Positions 22,177-25,149 of a stretch of DNA of 64,000 bases are shown here, piece by piece. The translations under genes were made by a program, and so were the position numbers. Numbering within the stretch: position 1 is the stretch's first letter; each line of letters begins with the position of its first letter. Source of the stretch: Escherichia coli (GTDB lineage Bacteria > Pseudomonadota > Gammaproteobacteria > Enterobacterales > Enterobacteriaceae); assembly GCF_011045215.1 (NCBI RefSeq), contig NZ_CP049201.1; one strand, given 5' to 3'. Below the pieces are notes generated by a model, which worked only from the letters and a program-made list of their open reading frames with translations, searched no databases and was not told the DNA's origin.

Positions 22177-23019
22177 TTGTATATGACTATGGCTGATGCG
22201 CGTCATTTACCTGTATTAATGTATCACCATATCAGTAATAATCCAGGGCTGGTGACGCTTTCACTCCGGACTTTCCGTGAGCAGATGCAGTGGCTGGCTG
22301 AAAATGGCTGGAAAACTGTTTCGGCAGCTGAAATGGAATTCTTTTATTGTGGCGGGAAACTGCCACGCAAAAGCGTCATGCTGACCTTTGATGACGGCTA
22401 CCTGGATAACTGGTTTTATGCCTTTCCGGTGTTACAGGCATTTGGTCTCCGGGCTCATATCTTTCTTGTCACGGGGCTTATCGGTGATGGTCCCGCCCGG
22501 CAACATGAAGAAAGCGGGGGGCGTCATATGTTTTCTCACCGGGAATGCGAGACCCTGATTGCACAGGGGCGGGCTGATGATGTCATGCTGCGCTGGTCTG
22601 AGGTCAGGGAAATGAGCCGGAGCGGGCTGGTCGAGTTTCATCTGCACACACATACCCACCGTCGCTGGGATCTGCTGGATAACGTCCGTGAGCCGTCCGT
22701 CTTTCTTGAGTCCGATATTCTTCTCGGACAGGCGCGAATGAGGCAAATGACCGGTTCATGCAGTCGTCATTTATGCTGGCCGGAGGGGTATTACAATCCG
22801 GACTATATCAGGGTGGCGGAGAAACTGGGATTCACCCACCTCTACACCACTGAGCGGCGGATGAATTCACCGGTGGCGGGTCCCCGGCGTATCGGGCGTA
22901 TCAGTACAAAGGAGCGTGAACATTCCGGCTGGCTGAAGCGCCGTCTCTTTTATTACACCACTCCGTTTTTTTCATCGCTTCTGGCCCTTCATAAGGGGCC
23001 CCGGCTGAATGATGACTGA
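22177..23019 (+). CDS. shf: Polysaccharide deacetylase family protein, Shf-like
   Basis: 280 aa; NodB-type motif ...SVMLTFDDGYLDNW...; first gene of a shf-capU-virK arrangement. Confidence 0.8.
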   Translation: MYMTMADARHLPVLMYHHISNNPGLVTLSLRTFREQMQWLAENGWKTVSAAEMEFFYCGGKLPRKSVMLTFDDGYLDNWFYAFPVLQAFGLRAHIFLVTGLIGDGPARQHEESGGRHMFSHRECETLIAQGRADDVMLRWSEVREMSRSGLVEFHLHTHTHRRWDLLDNVREPSVFLESDILLGQARMRQMTGSCSRHLCWPEGYYNPDYIRVAEKLGFTHLYTTERRMNSPVAGPRRIGRISTKEREHSGWLKRRLFYYTTPFFSSLLALHKGPRLNDD

Positions 23020-23028
23020 GAGGTGGTG

Positions 23029-24126
23029 ATGAAAATTCTTTATACCGAATCCTCTCCCAATATTGGTGGTCAGGAGTTGCAGGCGCTGGCTCAGATGGCT
23101 GCAATGCAGCGTGCCGGGCACAGTGTCATGCTGGCATGTCGCGAAAACAGCCGGATAGCCGCGGAAGCGGTCAGGCAGCAGACTGCGGTTACATATATTC
23201 CTTTCAGGAACAGTCTGCATTTTTCATCAGTCTGGCGACTCCGTCGTCTTGTTCTGACTTTCCGGCCGGATATGGTGGTGTGTCACAGCGGACATGACAG
23301 TAACACAGTGGCTCTGACCCGGGCCACGCTTACCGGAGGGGCGGGCAGGTTCAGTATTGTCCGTCAGAAGACATATCTGACCCGAAAGATGGAGGTGTTT
23401 TCGCTGAATCACTTCTGTGATGCCGTTGCTGTCCCCGGACAGGCGATGAAGGAGGCGCTGCAGGCTGCGGGATGTACAAACACCATCCGGGTGGTTTCAC
23501 CGGGATTTGATTTTGATGCAATCCGGGAAGCCATGAGCATGCCCCTGCCGGAACATGTTCGTGAATGGCTGGAAGCGAGAGCACCTCATCCGGTCATTGT
23601 TCAGATCGGAATGTTACGTCCGGAGAAAGGCCTGGATTTCATGCTGAAAACACTCTTTCATCTGAAACGTGAGGGAGGCCAGTTTCACTGGCTGATAGTC
23701 GGTGGCGGGCGTCCGGAAGAGGAGCGCCTGTTACGCCGTAAAATTCATGCGCTGGGGATGGAAGGGGGTGTACTGATATGCGGTTATCTTACGCCGGTAT
23801 ATCCGCTCTACAGGGTGGCTTCCCTGATGGTGATGCCTTCCACCTGTGAATCATTTGGTATGGCTGCAGTGGAGGCTGCTGCATGTGGTGTGCCGGTAAT
23901 GGCCAGTAATACAGGAGGGTTATCTTCCGTCATTCATCATGAGCGGACCGGTATTCTGCTCCCGCCGGATAACCGGCAGGCCTGGCTGGAAGCCCTGCGT
24001 GCGTACCTGTCCGCACCGGCCGGGTTCGCGGAAATGGCGGCCATGGCCCGCAGGGATGTGATGAGTCGTTTCAGTATGGAGGTAACCCTTGACAGGCTGT
24101 TGTCGCTGGGCTGTCTGCCCTTCTGA
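23029..24126 (+). CDS. capU: Glycosyltransferase (GT4/group 1), CapU-like hexosyltransferase
   Basis: ORF 23023..24126; likely ATG at 23029 (MKILYTESS...); C-terminal GT1 motifs ...MPSTCESFGMAAVEAAACGVPVMASNTGG... Confidence 0.8.
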   Translation: MKILYTESSPNIGGQELQALAQMAAMQRAGHSVMLACRENSRIAAEAVRQQTAVTYIPFRNSLHFSSVWRLRRLVLTFRPDMVVCHSGHDSNTVALTRATLTGGAGRFSIVRQKTYLTRKMEVFSLNHFCDAVAVPGQAMKEALQAAGCTNTIRVVSPGFDFDAIREAMSMPLPEHVREWLEARAPHPVIVQIGMLRPEKGLDFMLKTLFHLKREGGQFHWLIVGGGRPEEERLLRRKIHALGMEGGVLICGYLTPVYPLYRVASLMVMPSTCESFGMAAVEAAACGVPVMASNTGGLSSVIHHERTGILLPPDNRQAWLEALRAYLSAPAGFAEMAAMARRDVMSRFSMEVTLDRLLSLGCLPF

Positions 24127-24207
24127 TGTTGCCTGTACAGGAGACGGGTATTTTGTTTTTGAGTTATGGACTGTGTTATCTGATATCTGACATACCATCT
24201 GAATATT

Positions 24208-25149
24208 ATGAGTAATCTGTCTGTTATTTCGCTTGTTGTGAAACTGATGACTGGCCGTACTTTCCACAGAGGGAAGTGGGAGGACAGAAAGTTTCGTTAT
24301 AAATTTCTGCTGCGTTGTTGTTGTCATCCTCTGATCACAACCCATTATTTTCGTGCCCTGTGTGAACTGAGCGATATCGACGATCTTCTTGAGGTCAACC
24401 CGACCTTACCGGCCAAGATTCACCGTCCCTATCTCTTCCGGAACAGTCGCACCGGATTCCGGGTACAGGCAGTTCTTGACCATTATCATCTTATCCGGAG
24501 CCTTCCGCAGGAGGTCAGGCGAATGCTGAACGTCAGCCGGGAAACATCGCTTGTCCGCACCGAAGGGAAGGACGGCAGGTGGCTGGATATCAGTTGTTCC
24601 CCCTGTGGCTTTGACCGCGAGGGGGAGCTGATGCTGATACTGCGTTTTAATGGTGAGGTTATCACCCGTATTTCCTTCACACTTCTTTACTGGCAGGGGC
24701 ACCGGATGGTGTTTGTCGGGGGATTGCAGGGGCCTGCAGCGGGGACGGGCACAGCGATTATCCGGGAGGCCACCCGTGCCTGTTATGGCCTGTTTCCGCG
24801 CCGTCTGCTCTGTGAGGCACTGAGTGTGGTGGCAGGGATGTGCGGAGCCGGGGGGATAGTGGCTGTCAGTGAGGACAATCATGTGATGCGGCAGTTGCGT
24901 TATTTTTACCAGAAAAAGGGCCGGTTTGTTGCCCGTTACAGTGAGTGCTGGAAGTCTGCCGGAGGAAAATATTTTGATGGGTTCTGGTACCTGCCTCCGG
25001 AACTACCCCGTAAAGATGCCGGTGAAATCCCTGCAAGAAAACGGGCTGAGTACAGAAGGCGAAATGCCCTGCTTGATGAGGTACGGCGAGGGCTGATGGC
25101 TGCACAGCAGAATGGCTGTGATTTCAGAAACACAATAACGCTGATGTAA
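24208..25149 (+). CDS. virK: VirK-family protein
   Basis: 313 aa; position after shf-capU and size match VirK; family assignment by recall, not by search. Confidence 0.7.
   Translation: MSNLSVISLVVKLMTGRTFHRGKWEDRKFRYKFLLRCCCHPLITTHYFRALCELSDIDDLLEVNPTLPAKIHRPYLFRNSRTGFRVQAVLDHYHLIRSLPQEVRRMLNVSRETSLVRTEGKDGRWLDISCSPCGFDREGELMLILRFNGEVITRISFTLLYWQGHRMVFVGGLQGPAAGTGTAIIREATRACYGLFPRRLLCEALSVVAGMCGAGGIVAVSEDNHVMRQLRYFYQKKGRFVARYSECWKSAGGKYFDGFWYLPPELPRKDAGEIPARKRAEYRRRNALLDEVRRGLMAAQQNGCDFRNTITLM

What the first reader, a model, noticed from the sequence alone, without database searches (positions are those of the whole stretch)
22177..25149. shf-capU-virK module embedded in a chromosomal island between a fimbrial operon and a T6SS
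A polysaccharide deacetylase, a GT4 glycosyltransferase and a VirK-family protein occur in the order known from virulence plasmids of enteroaggregative E. coli and Shigella. Here the module is chromosomal-looking and followed by outer-membrane/secreted genes instead of msbB2, pointing to a variant surface-polysaccharide module.
Basis: partly seen in the sequence, partly recalled or inferred. Interest (0 to 1): 0.45.

Follow-up and report, generated by a model that had tools for sequence, protein, structure and literature searches.

The report
Divergent shf-capU-virK envelope module, extended
A rare, divergent copy of the known Shigella/E. coli shf-capU-virK envelope genes lies here, joined to outer-membrane and periplasmic genes of untested function instead of the usual lipid A gene msbB2; that combination recurs in several diverged lineages but has not been described.

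Summary
Three adjacent + strand genes (22189-23019, 23029-24126, 24208-25149) encode a CE4 deacetylase, a GT4 glycosyltransferase and a DUF535/VirK protein. They are 69/52/47% identical over nearly full length to Shigella Shf/CapU/VirK, in the same order, and no msbB2 is in the window.

- The literature links this module to LPS core and outer-membrane remodelling, not to an exopolysaccharide.
- "Chromosomal" cannot be shown. Window 1 to about 34.5 kb is 99% identical to an E. coli plasmid, and this version was found only on plasmids (seven). The T6SS half is chromosomal in most E. coli, and IS elements join the two halves.
- A chromosomal copy and a plasmid copy lacking msbB2 are both already known in EAEC 042.

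The new point is the downstream set: an outer-membrane beta-barrel (OMPx), a DUF4056 protein (predicted periplasmic lipid-head-group enzyme) and a rare about 290-aa secreted protein. They form a six-gene unit with the trio, kept in order in three diverged lineages (a fourth lacks a called VirK gene), with Rob-like AraC regulators beside it in two. Elsewhere the trio pairs with msbB2 or lies about 2.6-3.3 kb upstream of an extra pagP.

It most likely acts as an LPS and outer-membrane remodelling module. I rate it a new variant of a known kind, of moderate interest.

The parts
21501..21770 (+). Small ORF (89 aa) at the end of the fimbrial operon. It is a distant PapI/FaeA-like paralogue. Whether it is a real gene is uncertain, and it is not annotated in the C5 plasmid.
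   Evidence: ORF listed. BLASTP to the 26306-26557 product gives E = 8e-13 (30% over 81 aa), and to the FaeA-like ORF E = 0.002. There is no Pfam match above threshold.
21807..22022 (+). FaeA/PapI-family small regulator (71 aa). Its stop codon lies 166 bp upstream of the deacetylase start.
   Evidence: Pfam FaeA PF04703 at 3.7e-10. Annotated as a FaeA/PapI family regulator in the 99%-identical plasmid. Bovine E. coli chromosomes show the same arrangement of a FaeA/PapI gene directly before the trio.
22189..23019 (+). Shf/Ecf1/SfPgdA-like CE4 polysaccharide deacetylase (276 aa from the ATG at 22189; the ORF is open from the TTG at 22177). No signal peptide is evident.
   Evidence: PF01522 at 5e-23. 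It is 69% identical to Shigella Shf, 71% to the Salmonella plasmid homologue and 68% to Ecf1. Motifs TFDD at residue 66, HxHxH at 151-157 and WPEG at 197 are present. pN/pS is 0.30 against the E. fergusonii copy.
23029..24126 (+). CapU/RfbU/WabB/Ecf2-like GT4 glycosyltransferase (365 aa; the ORF is open from the GTG at 23023).
   Evidence: Glyco_trans_1_4 at 6e-31 and Glyco_transf_4 at 9.4e-14. It is 52% identical to CapU, 53% to Ecf2 and 56% to the Salmonella plasmid GT4 over about 360 aa. An EX7E motif lies at 274-282.
24208..25149 (+). VirK/YbjX-family (DUF535) protein, 313 aa.
   Evidence: PF04393 at 2.9e-75. It is 47% identical to Shigella VirK and 55% to the VirK of the other extended-module lineages.
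25155..26108 (+). OMPx: an uncharacterised outer-membrane beta-barrel protein (317 aa) with an N-terminal signal peptide and a C-terminal ...EYRF. It starts 6 nt after the virK stop.
   Evidence: AlphaFold2 model with mean pLDDT 80 and pTM 0.73, showing 11 long beta-strands consistent with a barrel. The best Foldseek matches are FapF, autotransporter beta-domains and Pla, with low TM-scores of 0.3-0.4. At least 120 homologue clusters at 45-65% identity occur across Enterobacterales, none with a Pfam family. It is always found next to a DUF4056 gene.
26306..26557 (+). Small ORF (83 aa), distantly PapI/FaeA-like, inserted between OMPx and DUF4056. It is seen only in the window lineage.
   Evidence: Annotated as hypothetical in the related plasmids examined. 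BLASTP gives E = 8e-13 to the 21501-21770 product and 3e-4 to the FaeA-like protein. There is no Pfam hit above threshold.
26650..27795 (+). DUF4056 protein (381 aa) with a signal peptide. It belongs to the CapCone-DUF4056 Lipocone family and is a predicted periplasmic enzyme acting on lipid head groups.
   Evidence: PF13265 at 1.7e-105. It is 56% identical to the chromosomal Citrobacter DUF4056. The motifs GFVDTAH (124-130) and SAFSPED (219-225) fit the CapCone signature described in bioRxiv 10.1101/2025.01.14.632903.
27830..28708 (+). hyp290: a rare secreted protein (292 aa) with a signal peptide. It is probably an all-beta outer-membrane protein and is specific to the extended module.
   Evidence: Only 7 clusters were found among 5.8 billion proteins, 32 representatives among 1.84 billion and none in 100,044 species-representative genomes. 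It is 49-52% identical to the last gene of the module in the other lineages. The AlphaFold2 model is all-beta but of low confidence, with pLDDT 59.9.
28729..29568 (+). Rob-like AraC-family regulator (279 aa) that closes the conserved 7.4-kb block.
   Evidence: HTH_18 at 1e-18 and NCBIfam RobA at 3.6e-32 over the N-terminal half only. It is 29-31% identical over its full length to the AraC/GyrI-like regulators that flank the module elsewhere.

Best explanation
This is a divergent and rare lineage of the shf-capU(rfbU/wabB)-virK envelope-remodelling module, joined to a different outer-membrane partner set.

**Proposed mechanism**
1. *Inferred by homology.* The cytoplasmic GT4 adds a GlcNAc-type sugar to the LPS inner core, as WabB/RfbU does on heptose III of the R3 core. 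The leaderless CE4 deacetylase, encoded 10 nt upstream and known to bind the GT4 in Shigella, converts it to GlcN or otherwise works with the GT4.
2. *Inferred by homology.* The VirK/DUF535 protein contributes to the outer-membrane barrier and to tolerance of cationic peptides.
3. *Inferred from conserved linkage and predicted localisation only.* In place of the lipid A acyltransferase MsbB2, the unit carries three exported proteins. These are a beta-barrel (OMPx), a periplasmic Lipocone-type enzyme (DUF4056) predicted to act on lipid head groups, and a rare all-beta protein (hyp290). I propose that they remodel or handle outer-membrane lipid or LPS from the periplasmic side.
4. *Inferred.* Expression is probably not controlled by PhoP as in Shigella. 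It more likely depends on the linked Rob-like AraC regulator and/or on the upstream fimbrial operon with its PapI-like regulators.
For: **Homology and order**
- The three proteins match Shf, CapU and VirK at 69/52/47% identity over nearly full length, in the same order, with catalytic motifs intact.

**Published function of the classical module**
- RfbU = WabB adds alpha-1,7-GlcN(Ac) to HepIII of the R3 core.
- SfGtr4 and SfPgdA interact, and their mutants are sensitive to lysozyme and PMN killing.
- Shigella VirK is cytoplasmic; its loss raises outer-membrane permeability and sensitivity to cationic peptides.

**The six-gene unit is conserved**
- The order PDA-GT4-DUF535-OMPx-DUF4056-hyp290 is kept in the window lineage, in E. 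coli L010/L014 and in a metagenome contig (L016). A Citrobacter freundii locus (L013) has a split deacetylase gene and no called VirK gene.
- Orthologues are only 49-77% identical between the three lineages that keep all six genes.
- Stop and start codons overlap in L010 and L016.

**The trio's neighbours are all outer-membrane-lipid genes**
- msbB2 immediately follows the trio in Shigella, Salmonella and pO121.
- An extra pagP lies about 2.6-3.3 kb downstream in bovine E. coli chromosomes.
- The OMPx-DUF4056 set follows the trio here.

**The genes are maintained**
- All eight ORFs are intact in the E. fergusonii copy, with an overall pN/pS of 0.31.

**Regulation**
- Rob-like AraC regulators lie beside the module in the window lineage and in L010/L014.
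- No PhoP box with 2 or fewer mismatches lies between the end of the fimbrial operon and the module, whereas the Shigella control has one 133 bp upstream of shf.
Against: - No biochemical data exist for this lineage. At 52% identity the donor and acceptor of the GT4 may differ from those of WabB.
- The Shigella deacetylase has been reported as a peptidoglycan deacetylase and not an LPS one.
- VirK localisation and role are disputed: cytoplasmic in Shigella, but outer-membrane with no lipid A change in Klebsiella.
- The two halves can be separated. The trio occurs without OMPx-DUF4056, and OMPx-DUF4056 occurs without the trio as a chromosomal OMPx-Omp85-DUF4056 set.
- In the window a 198-bp gap and a small regulator-like ORF split the two halves, so a single transcript is unproven.
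- The promoter and terminator scans were not above chance: 15 promoter-like sites against 10.6 +/- 3.7 expected.
- The roles of OMPx and hyp290 rest on predicted folds, one of them of low confidence.
Confidence: 0.6

Rival explanations
1. The locus holds two unrelated neighbours. The shf-like trio is one LPS-related unit, and OMPx-DUF4056-hyp290 is an independent envelope system, for example one linked to fimbriae or to outer-membrane protein biogenesis. Their adjacency would reflect the mosaic nature of colonisation islands and not a shared function.
For: - The halves occur apart. OMPx-Omp85-DUF4056 trios lie on the chromosomes or large contigs of Citrobacter, Edwardsiella and S. houtenae with no shf-like genes.
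- The trio occurs alone, with msbB2 directly after it or an extra pagP a few kb downstream.
- The window has a 198-bp gap plus a small ORF between OMPx and DUF4056.
- A distant hyp290 relative in Providencia follows a fim operon and an outer-membrane barrel, with no trio.
Against: The same six-gene order persists in three lineages at 49-77% protein identity (a fourth lacks a called VirK gene), with overlapping or nearly abutting genes. OMPx starts 6 nt after the virK stop in the window. That degree of kept order is unusual for unrelated neighbours.
Confidence: 0.25
2. The module modifies peptidoglycan or an exopolysaccharide and not LPS. On this view the deacetylase is an SfPgdA-type peptidoglycan deacetylase or an IcaB/PgaB-type PNAG deacetylase, the GT4 makes or decorates a polysaccharide, and OMPx serves as the export pore. 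The phenotypes would be biofilm formation and lysozyme resistance.
For: - The best NCBIfam hits of the deacetylase are PgaB and IcaB, both far below their cut-offs.
- Shigella SfPgdA has reported peptidoglycan deacetylase activity, and shf/Sfgtr4 mutants change biofilm formation.
- The best Foldseek matches of OMPx include the FapF secretion channel and BcsC.
Against: - The deacetylase has no signal peptide, so it is unlikely to reach periplasmic PNAG or mature peptidoglycan (sequence).
- No polymerising synthase (PgaC/IcaA-type GT2) or Wzx/Wzy/ABC exporter is present in the block.
- WabB/RfbU has an established LPS-core role.
- The Foldseek TM-scores of 0.3-0.4 show only a generic barrel.
Confidence: 0.12
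3. DUF4056 is a toxin or effector, for example T6SS-delivered, with neighbouring immunity-like genes, and it sits by chance beside the shf-like trio.
For: - Related CapCone Lipocone families are toxin domains of polymorphic toxin and T6SS systems.
- A DUF4056 ORF was proposed as a T6SS effector candidate in Salmonella Kentucky.
- A T6SS lies about 13 kb downstream in the window.
Against: - The protein has a Sec signal peptide and no PAAR, VgrG or Rhs context.
- It is separated from the T6SS by ibrAB and four IS-type genes.
- Its orthologues lie in conserved chromosomal trios with outer-membrane proteins far from any T6SS.
- The T6SS half of the window has a different origin from the module half.
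Confidence: 0.03

Closest known systems
shf-rfbU(capU/wabB/Sfgtr4)-virK-msbB2 operon of Shigella pINV, with the EAEC 042 chromosomal copy and the pAA2 copy
   Same: The first three genes share family and order, with tight spacing between the deacetylase and the GT4. The proteins are 69/52/47% identical over nearly full length. The pAA2 copy also lacks msbB2.
   Different: - This lineage is much more divergent than the classical copies are from each other: 59-79% among the Shigella, Salmonella and pO121 copies, and about 93% DNA identity between the Shigella and EAEC copies.
- It has no msbB2 and no recognisable PhoP box.
- OMPx, DUF4056, hyp290 and a Rob-like regulator follow the trio.
ecf operon of pO157/pO121 (ecf1 deacetylase, ecf2 = wabB LPS alpha-1,7-GlcNAc transferase, ecf3 membrane protein, ecf4 = msbB2)
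   Same: The deacetylase-GT4 pair is 68% and 53% identical, and the setting is a large plasmid of ruminant-associated E. coli.
   Different: The third ecf gene encodes a 573-aa membrane protein and not VirK, and the fourth is msbB2. The window has VirK and no msbB2.
Chromosomal fimbriae-FaeA/PapI-deacetylase-GT4-VirK islands of bovine E. coli (RM8082, C311)
   Same: The layout is the same as in the window: a chaperone-usher operon, then one or two FaeA/PapI genes, then the trio on the same strand.
   Different: - The trio belongs to the L010-like lineage (about 88% nucleotide identity to L010), which is only 55-71% identical to the window proteins.
- Downstream there is an HTH regulator and, about 2.6-3.3 kb after virK, an extra pagP. 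Only a 110-aa remnant ORF follows virK in C311.
OMPx-Omp85-like-DUF4056 three-gene sets on the chromosomes or large contigs of Citrobacter, Edwardsiella and Salmonella houtenae (also drawn as lipoprotein, membrane protein and DUF4056 in a Xenorhabdus figure)
   Same: OMPx and DUF4056 are 53% and 56% identical to the Citrobacter proteins, and both are exported.
   Different: The chromosomal sets carry an Omp85-superfamily barrel between the two genes and have no shf-like trio. The window has hyp290 after DUF4056, which shows no detectable similarity to the Omp85-like protein.

Membership tests
Shf/Ecf1/SfPgdA (CE4 polysaccharide deacetylase of the shf module) | Polysacc_deac_1 (NodB/CE4) domain with the metal-binding and catalytic motifs | tested here: met
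   PF01522 at 5e-23. TFDD at residue 66, HxHxH at 151-157 and WPEG at 197 are present.
Shf/Ecf1/SfPgdA (CE4 polysaccharide deacetylase of the shf module) | Full-length similarity to Shf, of the same size and without a signal peptide | tested here: met
   It is 69% identical to Shf over 274 of 280 aa, 71% to the Salmonella plasmid homologue and 68% to Ecf1. The N-terminus MADARHLPVLMYHH runs straight into the domain, as in Ecf1.
Shf/Ecf1/SfPgdA (CE4 polysaccharide deacetylase of the shf module) | Deacetylase activity and its substrate (LPS-core GlcNAc or peptidoglycan) | not testable with these tools
   This needs enzymology or LPS and peptidoglycan analysis.
CapU/RfbU/WabB/Ecf2/SfGtr4 (GT4 of the shf module) | GT-B GT4 fold with an EX7E motif | tested here: met
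   Glyco_transf_4 at 9.4e-14 plus Glyco_trans_1_4 at 6e-31. ESFGMAAVE lies at 274-282.
CapU/RfbU/WabB/Ecf2/SfGtr4 (GT4 of the shf module) | Orthology to WabB, meaning the same donor (UDP-GlcNAc) and the same acceptor (HepIII of the R3 core) | tested here: inconclusive
   Identity is 52-53% over about 360 aa and the position after the deacetylase is the same. However, the GT4s of the extended lineages are closer to each other (58-86%) than to CapU or Ecf2 (49-53%). Specificity cannot be read from sequence.
VirK/YbjX (DUF535) | DUF535 domain over the whole protein | tested here: met
   PF04393 at 2.9e-75, covering residues 23-295 of 313. It is 47% identical to Shigella VirK.
Classical shf-rfbU-virK-msbB2 operon | Gene order deacetylase-GT4-VirK on one strand | tested here: met
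Classical shf-rfbU-virK-msbB2 operon | A fourth gene, msbB2/lpxM (lipid A myristoyltransferase) | tested here: not met
   tblastn of Shigella MsbB2 against the whole window gave a best E of 3.3. This feature is also absent from the accepted pAA2 copy.
Classical shf-rfbU-virK-msbB2 operon | PhoP-box promoter upstream of shf (PhoPQ and low-Mg regulation) | tested here: not met
   No match to KGTTTA-N5-KGTTTA with 2 or fewer mismatches lies between 19391 and 30788. The Shigella control has TGTTTATGAATTGTTGA 133-149 bp upstream of shf, which agrees with the mapped transcription start about 100 bp upstream.
Lipocone superfamily, CapCone-DUF4056 family | DUF4056 profile match | tested here: met
   PF13265 at 1.7e-105, covering profile positions 3-266 of 266.
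Lipocone superfamily, CapCone-DUF4056 family | Gly six residues before the H2 active-site His, and an S/GxxSxx motif before the H4 Asp | tested here: met
   GFVDTAH at 124-130 and SAFSPED at 219-225 fit the description in the paper. Both are conserved in the Citrobacter orthologue. I assigned these as the active-site positions by inspection, without a structural alignment.
Lipocone superfamily, CapCone-DUF4056 family | Catalytic activity on a phospholipid or polyisoprenoid head group | not testable with these tools
   This is only predicted, even in the source paper.
Rob/MarA/SoxS-type AraC regulators | N-terminal double HTH | tested here: met
   HTH_18 at 1e-18 and HTH_AraC at 7.8e-8. NCBIfam RobA at 3.6e-32 over residues 16-161.
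Rob/MarA/SoxS-type AraC regulators | C-terminal GyrI-like effector domain (Rob architecture) | tested here: inconclusive
   Pfam reports no GyrI-like hit for the window protein. It does align over its full length (29-31%) with module-linked regulators that carry PF06445.
FaeA/PapI small regulators | FaeA profile match | tested here: met
   The 21807-22022 product matches PF04703 at 3.7e-10. For 26306-26557 and 21501-21770 there is no Pfam hit, only BLASTP links (E = 3e-4 and 0.002 to the FaeA-like protein, and 8e-13 to each other), so membership of those two is inconclusive.

The most novel reading that the evidence does not exclude
PDA-GT4-VirK-OMPx-DUF4056-hyp290, with Rob-like regulators beside it in two of the lineages, is a single undescribed envelope-remodelling operon. 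It would couple cytoplasmic LPS-core glucosaminylation to a periplasmic Lipocone enzyme and two outer-membrane barrels that alter outer-membrane lipid or LPS head groups. It would be wired to chaperone-usher fimbrial operons and their PapI-like regulators and not to PhoPQ, so that the surface chemistry of ruminant-gut Escherichia changes together with fimbrial expression.
Probability: 0.3. Interest if true: 0.55.

Novelty: new variant of a known kind. Interest (0 to 1): 0.4.

Why it matters
The shf-capU-virK-msbB2 locus is a long-known but still poorly understood virulence-plasmid module of Shigella, EAEC and EHEC.

This locus shows that the trio is a portable core found next to different outer-membrane-lipid genes: msbB2, an extra pagP a few kb downstream, or an OMPx-DUF4056-hyp290 set. 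That pattern supports a role in LPS and outer-membrane remodelling. It also gives DUF4056 and the widespread OMPx family, neither of which has been studied experimentally, a testable genetic context.

The repeated position directly after fimbrial operons and PapI-like genes, together with the loss of the PhoP box, suggests a different regulatory logic in livestock-associated Escherichia. All of the functional claims remain inferences.

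Tried and rejected
- **PhoP regulation as in Shigella.** No PhoP box lies upstream of the module, although the positive control worked.
- **A Dam/PapI-type phase switch directly upstream of the module.** No GATC site lies between 21053 and 22668. The 102-bp-spaced GATC pairs sit at the fimbrial promoter instead.
- **A shared upstream regulatory motif across lineages.** The alignment of six upstream regions shows none. Homology between the window and the other plasmids begins at codons 2-5 of the deacetylase gene.
- **hyp290 as a diverged copy of the Omp85-like gene of the chromosomal trios.** BLASTP finds no similarity, E = 0.17.
- **The Omp85-like neighbour as BamK.** BamK is a full BamA paralogue restricted to Klebsiella and is not relevant.
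- **Solved structures.** Sequence searches found none for OMPx, DUF4056, hyp290 or VirK.
- **hyp290 in species-representative genomes.** Nothing was found.
- **Structure of hyp290.** The model has only pLDDT 59.9, so I ran no fold search on it.
- **Fold search of OMPx.** It shows only a generic barrel, with TM-scores of 0.3-0.4.
- **Promoter and terminator scan of 21400-30300.** Counts are not above the shuffled expectation.
- **Deciding between plasmid and chromosome.** The window has no tRNA gene, and I recognised no replication or transfer genes in the parts I looked at. Its two halves have different nearest relatives.
- **DUF4056 as a T6SS effector.** I considered this unlikely.
- **Two script or coordinate errors** were corrected.

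Full report
**1. The observation**

The + strand carries three consecutive ORFs at the stated coordinates.
- 22177-23019: Polysacc_deac_1, 5e-23.
- 23023-24126: GT4 N- and C-terminal domains, 9e-14 and 6e-31.
- 24208-25149: DUF535, the VirK/YbjX family, 2.9e-75.

The RefSeq annotation of a 99%-identical plasmid places the starts at 22189 and 23029.

I took the annotated Shf, CapU, VirK and LpxM/MsbB2 genes from three reference plasmids: a Shigella flexneri virulence plasmid, pO121 (Ecf1, Ecf2, MsbB2) and a Salmonella Abortusovis plasmid. BLASTP gave these identities:

| Window protein | Shigella | Salmonella plasmid | pO121 |
|---|---|---|---|
| Deacetylase | 69% | 71% | 68% |
| GT4 | 52% | 56% | 53% |
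| VirK | 47% | 44% | no VirK gene |

All matches run over nearly full length, with E-values of 5e-91 or better. The classical copies are 59-79% identical to each other, so the window copy is clearly homologous but sits outside that group. tblastn of MsbB2 against the whole window found nothing.

Catalytic signatures are intact:
- TFDD, HxHxH and WPxG in the deacetylase;
- EX7E in the GT4.

**2. Where the locus sits**

- Window 1-22000 and 22000-29600 are 99.2% and 99.4% identical to plasmid A (214 kb) of bovine E. coli C5. The next ~4.9 kb (ibrAB and IS66, to about 34.5 kb) matches it at 99.8% in three pieces.
- The 7.4-kb block 22196-29600 occurs in only 2 of 5426 complete E. coli genomes, both times on plasmids. 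In PLSDB it occurs in seven records (E. coli and E. fergusonii from cattle and sheep), all typed conjugative; the two I examined are IncF.
- From about 35.9 kb onward the window resembles the chromosome of the same strain C5 (96.5-98.7%) and many other E. coli chromosomes. This part holds YfdX, a porin fragment, ProQ/FinO and a T6SS. Of the matching places, 6122 are chromosomal and 12 are on plasmids. A Citrobacter plasmid also carries this T6SS at 95.6%.
- The two halves meet in a cluster of IS4-like, IS110 and IS66 genes at about 32.5-37.4 kb. The window has no tRNA gene.

The replicon therefore cannot be decided. The window could be a chromosomal island that absorbed plasmid DNA, a plasmid that captured a T6SS, or a join made across IS copies during assembly. 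The T6SS is not functionally adjacent to the module, because ibrAB and the IS cluster lie between them.

**3. What is already known about the module**

- EAEC 042 has a chromosomal shf-rfbU-virK-msbB2 copy and a pAA2 copy without msbB2. RfbU was renamed WabB after it was shown to add alpha-1,7-GlcN(Ac) to the R3 core (PMC2808357).
- In Shigella the locus is induced by low Mg through PhoPQ. The deacetylase (SfPgdA) and the GT4 (SfGtr4) interact physically. Their mutants are more sensitive to lysozyme and neutrophil killing and form biofilm sooner (PMC7355660).
- Shigella VirK is cytoplasmic, with a predicted GNAT-like fold. Its loss raises outer-membrane permeability and sensitivity to cationic peptides. 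The operon's transcription start lies about 100 bp upstream of shf (PMC12562796).
- A Klebsiella VirK was reported in the outer membrane, with no effect on lipid A (PMC13109725).

"Chromosomal" and "without msbB2" are therefore not new. The documented biology is LPS and outer-membrane remodelling, not synthesis of a surface polysaccharide.

**4. What follows the trio**

All the following genes lie on the same strand.
- **OMPx (25155-26108)** starts 6 nt after the virK stop. It has a signal peptide and ends in ...EYRF. The AlphaFold2 model (pLDDT 80) shows 11 long beta-strands consistent with a barrel. Foldseek finds only generic barrel matches (FapF, autotransporter beta-domains, Pla; TM-scores 0.3-0.4).
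- **A small ORF (26306-26557).**
- **DUF4056 (26650-27795)** matches PF13265 at 1.7e-105 and has a signal peptide.
- **hyp290 (27830-28708)** has a signal peptide. Its model is all-beta but of low confidence, pLDDT 59.9.
- **A Rob-like AraC regulator (28729-29568)**.

Burroughs, Nicastro and Aravind place DUF4056 in the CapCone clade of their Lipocone superfamily. They predict soluble enzymes that act on phospholipid or polyisoprenoid head groups. The signature they describe is present here and in the Citrobacter orthologue: a Gly six residues before the active-site His, and SxxSxxD. In the window protein these are GFVDTAH at 124-130 and SAFSPED at 219-225.

**5. The downstream genes are not random cargo**

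At least 120 homologue clusters of OMPx, at 45-65% identity, occur across Enterobacterales. Their contexts fall into two classes.

- **(a) Chromosomal three-gene sets, OMPx-Omp85-like-DUF4056.** They occur in Citrobacter (beside gyrB-yidA), Edwardsiella and S. houtenae. A Xenorhabdus figure legend seems to show the same set.
- **(b) The same six-gene unit as in the window, PDA-GT4-DUF535-OMPx-DUF4056-hyp290.** It occurs in E. coli contigs L010, L011 and L014 and in a metagenome contig, L016. A Citrobacter freundii contig, L013, has a split deacetylase gene and no called DUF535 gene.

Across the three lineages that keep all six genes, orthologues are only 49-77% identical, yet the order is kept. 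In L010 and L016 stop and start codons overlap (and the coordinates).

The GT4 and VirK proteins of the extended lineages are closer to each other (58-86% and 55-69%) than to the classical CapU and VirK (49-56% and 43-47%).

hyp290 marks this unit and is very rare:
- 7 clusters among 5.8 billion proteins;
- 32 representatives among 1.84 billion;
- none in 100,044 species-representative genomes;
- among plasmids, only the seven Escherichia records plus a 31%-identical Providencia protein. That protein follows a fim operon and an outer-membrane barrel.

All eight ORFs are intact in the E. fergusonii copy. The overall pN/pS is 0.31, from 35 synonymous and 34 non-synonymous changes. This is consistent with maintained genes, but the numbers are small.

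**6. The trio keeps changing neighbours, always with an outer-membrane-lipid theme**

- In Shigella, Salmonella and pO121 the neighbouring gene is msbB2.
- A trio about 88% identical in DNA to the L010 trio lies on the chromosomes of bovine E. coli, 8 chromosomal places in all. In the two examined (RM8082, C311) it is followed by an HTH regulator and, about 2.6-3.3 kb after virK, by an extra copy of pagP, the lipid A palmitoyltransferase gene.
- In the window and its relatives the partner is the OMPx-DUF4056-hyp290 set.

This is the main argument that the downstream set acts on the outer membrane alongside the trio. It is an argument from association and not a demonstration.

**7. Regulation**

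- No PhoP box (KGTTTA-N5-KGTTTA with 2 or fewer mismatches) lies between 19391 and 30788. The same search finds TGTTTATGAATTGTTGA 133-149 bp upstream of Shigella shf.
- The region upstream of the deacetylase gene differs between the window and C5 on one side and the two other plasmids aligned on the other. In those two a 301-aa Rob-like HTH gene precedes the module, and homology begins at codons 2-5 of the deacetylase gene.
- Rob-like AraC or GyrI-like regulators lie beside the module in the window lineage and in L010/L014. They are 29-43% identical to each other.
- A chaperone-usher fimbrial operon, then one or more FaeA/PapI genes, then the trio, all on one strand, is seen in the window, in C311 and in RM8082. 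Fimbrial genes also flank L010, L013 and L016.
- The window lineage carries a further distant PapI-like ORF inside the module, at 26306-26557.
- No GATC site lies between 21053 and 22668, so there is no Pap-type methylation switch at the module itself.
- Consensus promoter and terminator scans were not above chance.

I conclude, as inference, that control has shifted from PhoPQ to local Rob-like and possibly fimbria-linked regulators.

**8. Verdict**

The finding is real. It is a rare, divergent lineage of a known module with a recurring gene set attached, for which I found no published description. The mechanism I commit to, at about 0.6, has two parts:
- cytoplasmic LPS-core GlcN(Ac) modification, together with the VirK barrier function;
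- a periplasmic and outer-membrane partner set (DUF4056 Lipocone enzyme and two barrels) that takes the place of msbB2.

The main rival, at about 0.25, is that the two halves are functionally independent neighbours. Peptidoglycan or exopolysaccharide modification (about 0.12) and a toxin role for DUF4056 (about 0.03) are less likely.

Novelty: a new variant of a known kind. Interest: moderate, 0.4. It would rise if the six-gene unit proves to be one operon with a new lipid or LPS chemistry.

Noticed in passing
window 11145-11250 and 11783-11888: Two pairs of GATC sites lie exactly 102 bp apart. One pair (11145/11247) is just upstream of the PapB/FocB-like gene (about 11282-11623). The other (11783/11885) lies just past that gene, near the start of the first fimbrial subunit gene (~11740). 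This is the spacing of the Pap-type Dam/Lrp phase-variation switch, which suggests that the fimbrial operon is phase-variable.
   Followed up: partly
window 18579-21483: Three consecutive ORFs of about 315 aa (18579-19538, 19547-20506, 20539-21483) end the fimbrial operon. Their GC content is low (37-41%). Each begins with a hydrophobic, signal-like N-terminus, and they are annotated only as hypothetical. They may be alternative tip adhesins.
   Followed up: no
window 21501-21770, 21807-22022, 26306-26557: Three small PapI/FaeA-like ORFs are present. Only the middle one matches the Pfam FaeA profile. The other two resemble each other (E = 8e-13) and end in ...WFLV. One of them sits inside the envelope module.
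   Followed up: partly
window 30201-32074: An ibrA/ibrB-like pair (a PAPS-reductase-like gene and a ParB-like gene) follows the module. The pair stays linked to it in the related plasmids examined, which also carry YadA-family or Eib-like adhesin genes nearby.
   Followed up: no
window ~32500-37400: A cluster of IS4-like, IS110 and IS66 transposase genes marks the switch from plasmid-like sequence (C5 plasmid A) to chromosome-like sequence (C5 chromosome, T6SS island). It could be a cointegration or recombination point, or an assembly join.
   Followed up: partly
window 22189-22207 compared with L006/L007: Homology between the window (and C5) and the two other module-bearing plasmids aligned begins within codons 2-5 of the deacetylase gene. 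The whole upstream region has been exchanged: a fimbrial operon with PapI-like genes here, and a YadA fragment with a 301-aa Rob-like HTH gene there.
   Followed up: yes
L019 13308-13871 and L020 12602-13165 (E. coli C311 and RM8082 chromosomes): An extra pagP (lipid IV(A) palmitoyltransferase) copy lies about 2.6-3.3 kb downstream of a variant deacetylase-GT4-VirK trio in bovine E. coli chromosomes. This is another lipid A enzyme linked to the trio.
   Followed up: partly
L008 8001-11283, L012 8001-11283, L015 9001-12169: A conserved three-gene set, OMPx-Omp85-like-DUF4056, lies on the chromosomes or large contigs of Citrobacter, Edwardsiella and S. houtenae. It is uncharacterised, and its Omp85-family protein of about 379 aa matches the Omp85 barrel profile from residue 110 onward.
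   Followed up: partly
window 1-8000: The left end carries MFS transporter, M20 aminoacylase, a large HTH protein and EAL-domain genes, followed by ISEc8. This stretch is 99% identical to C5 plasmid A.
   Followed up: no
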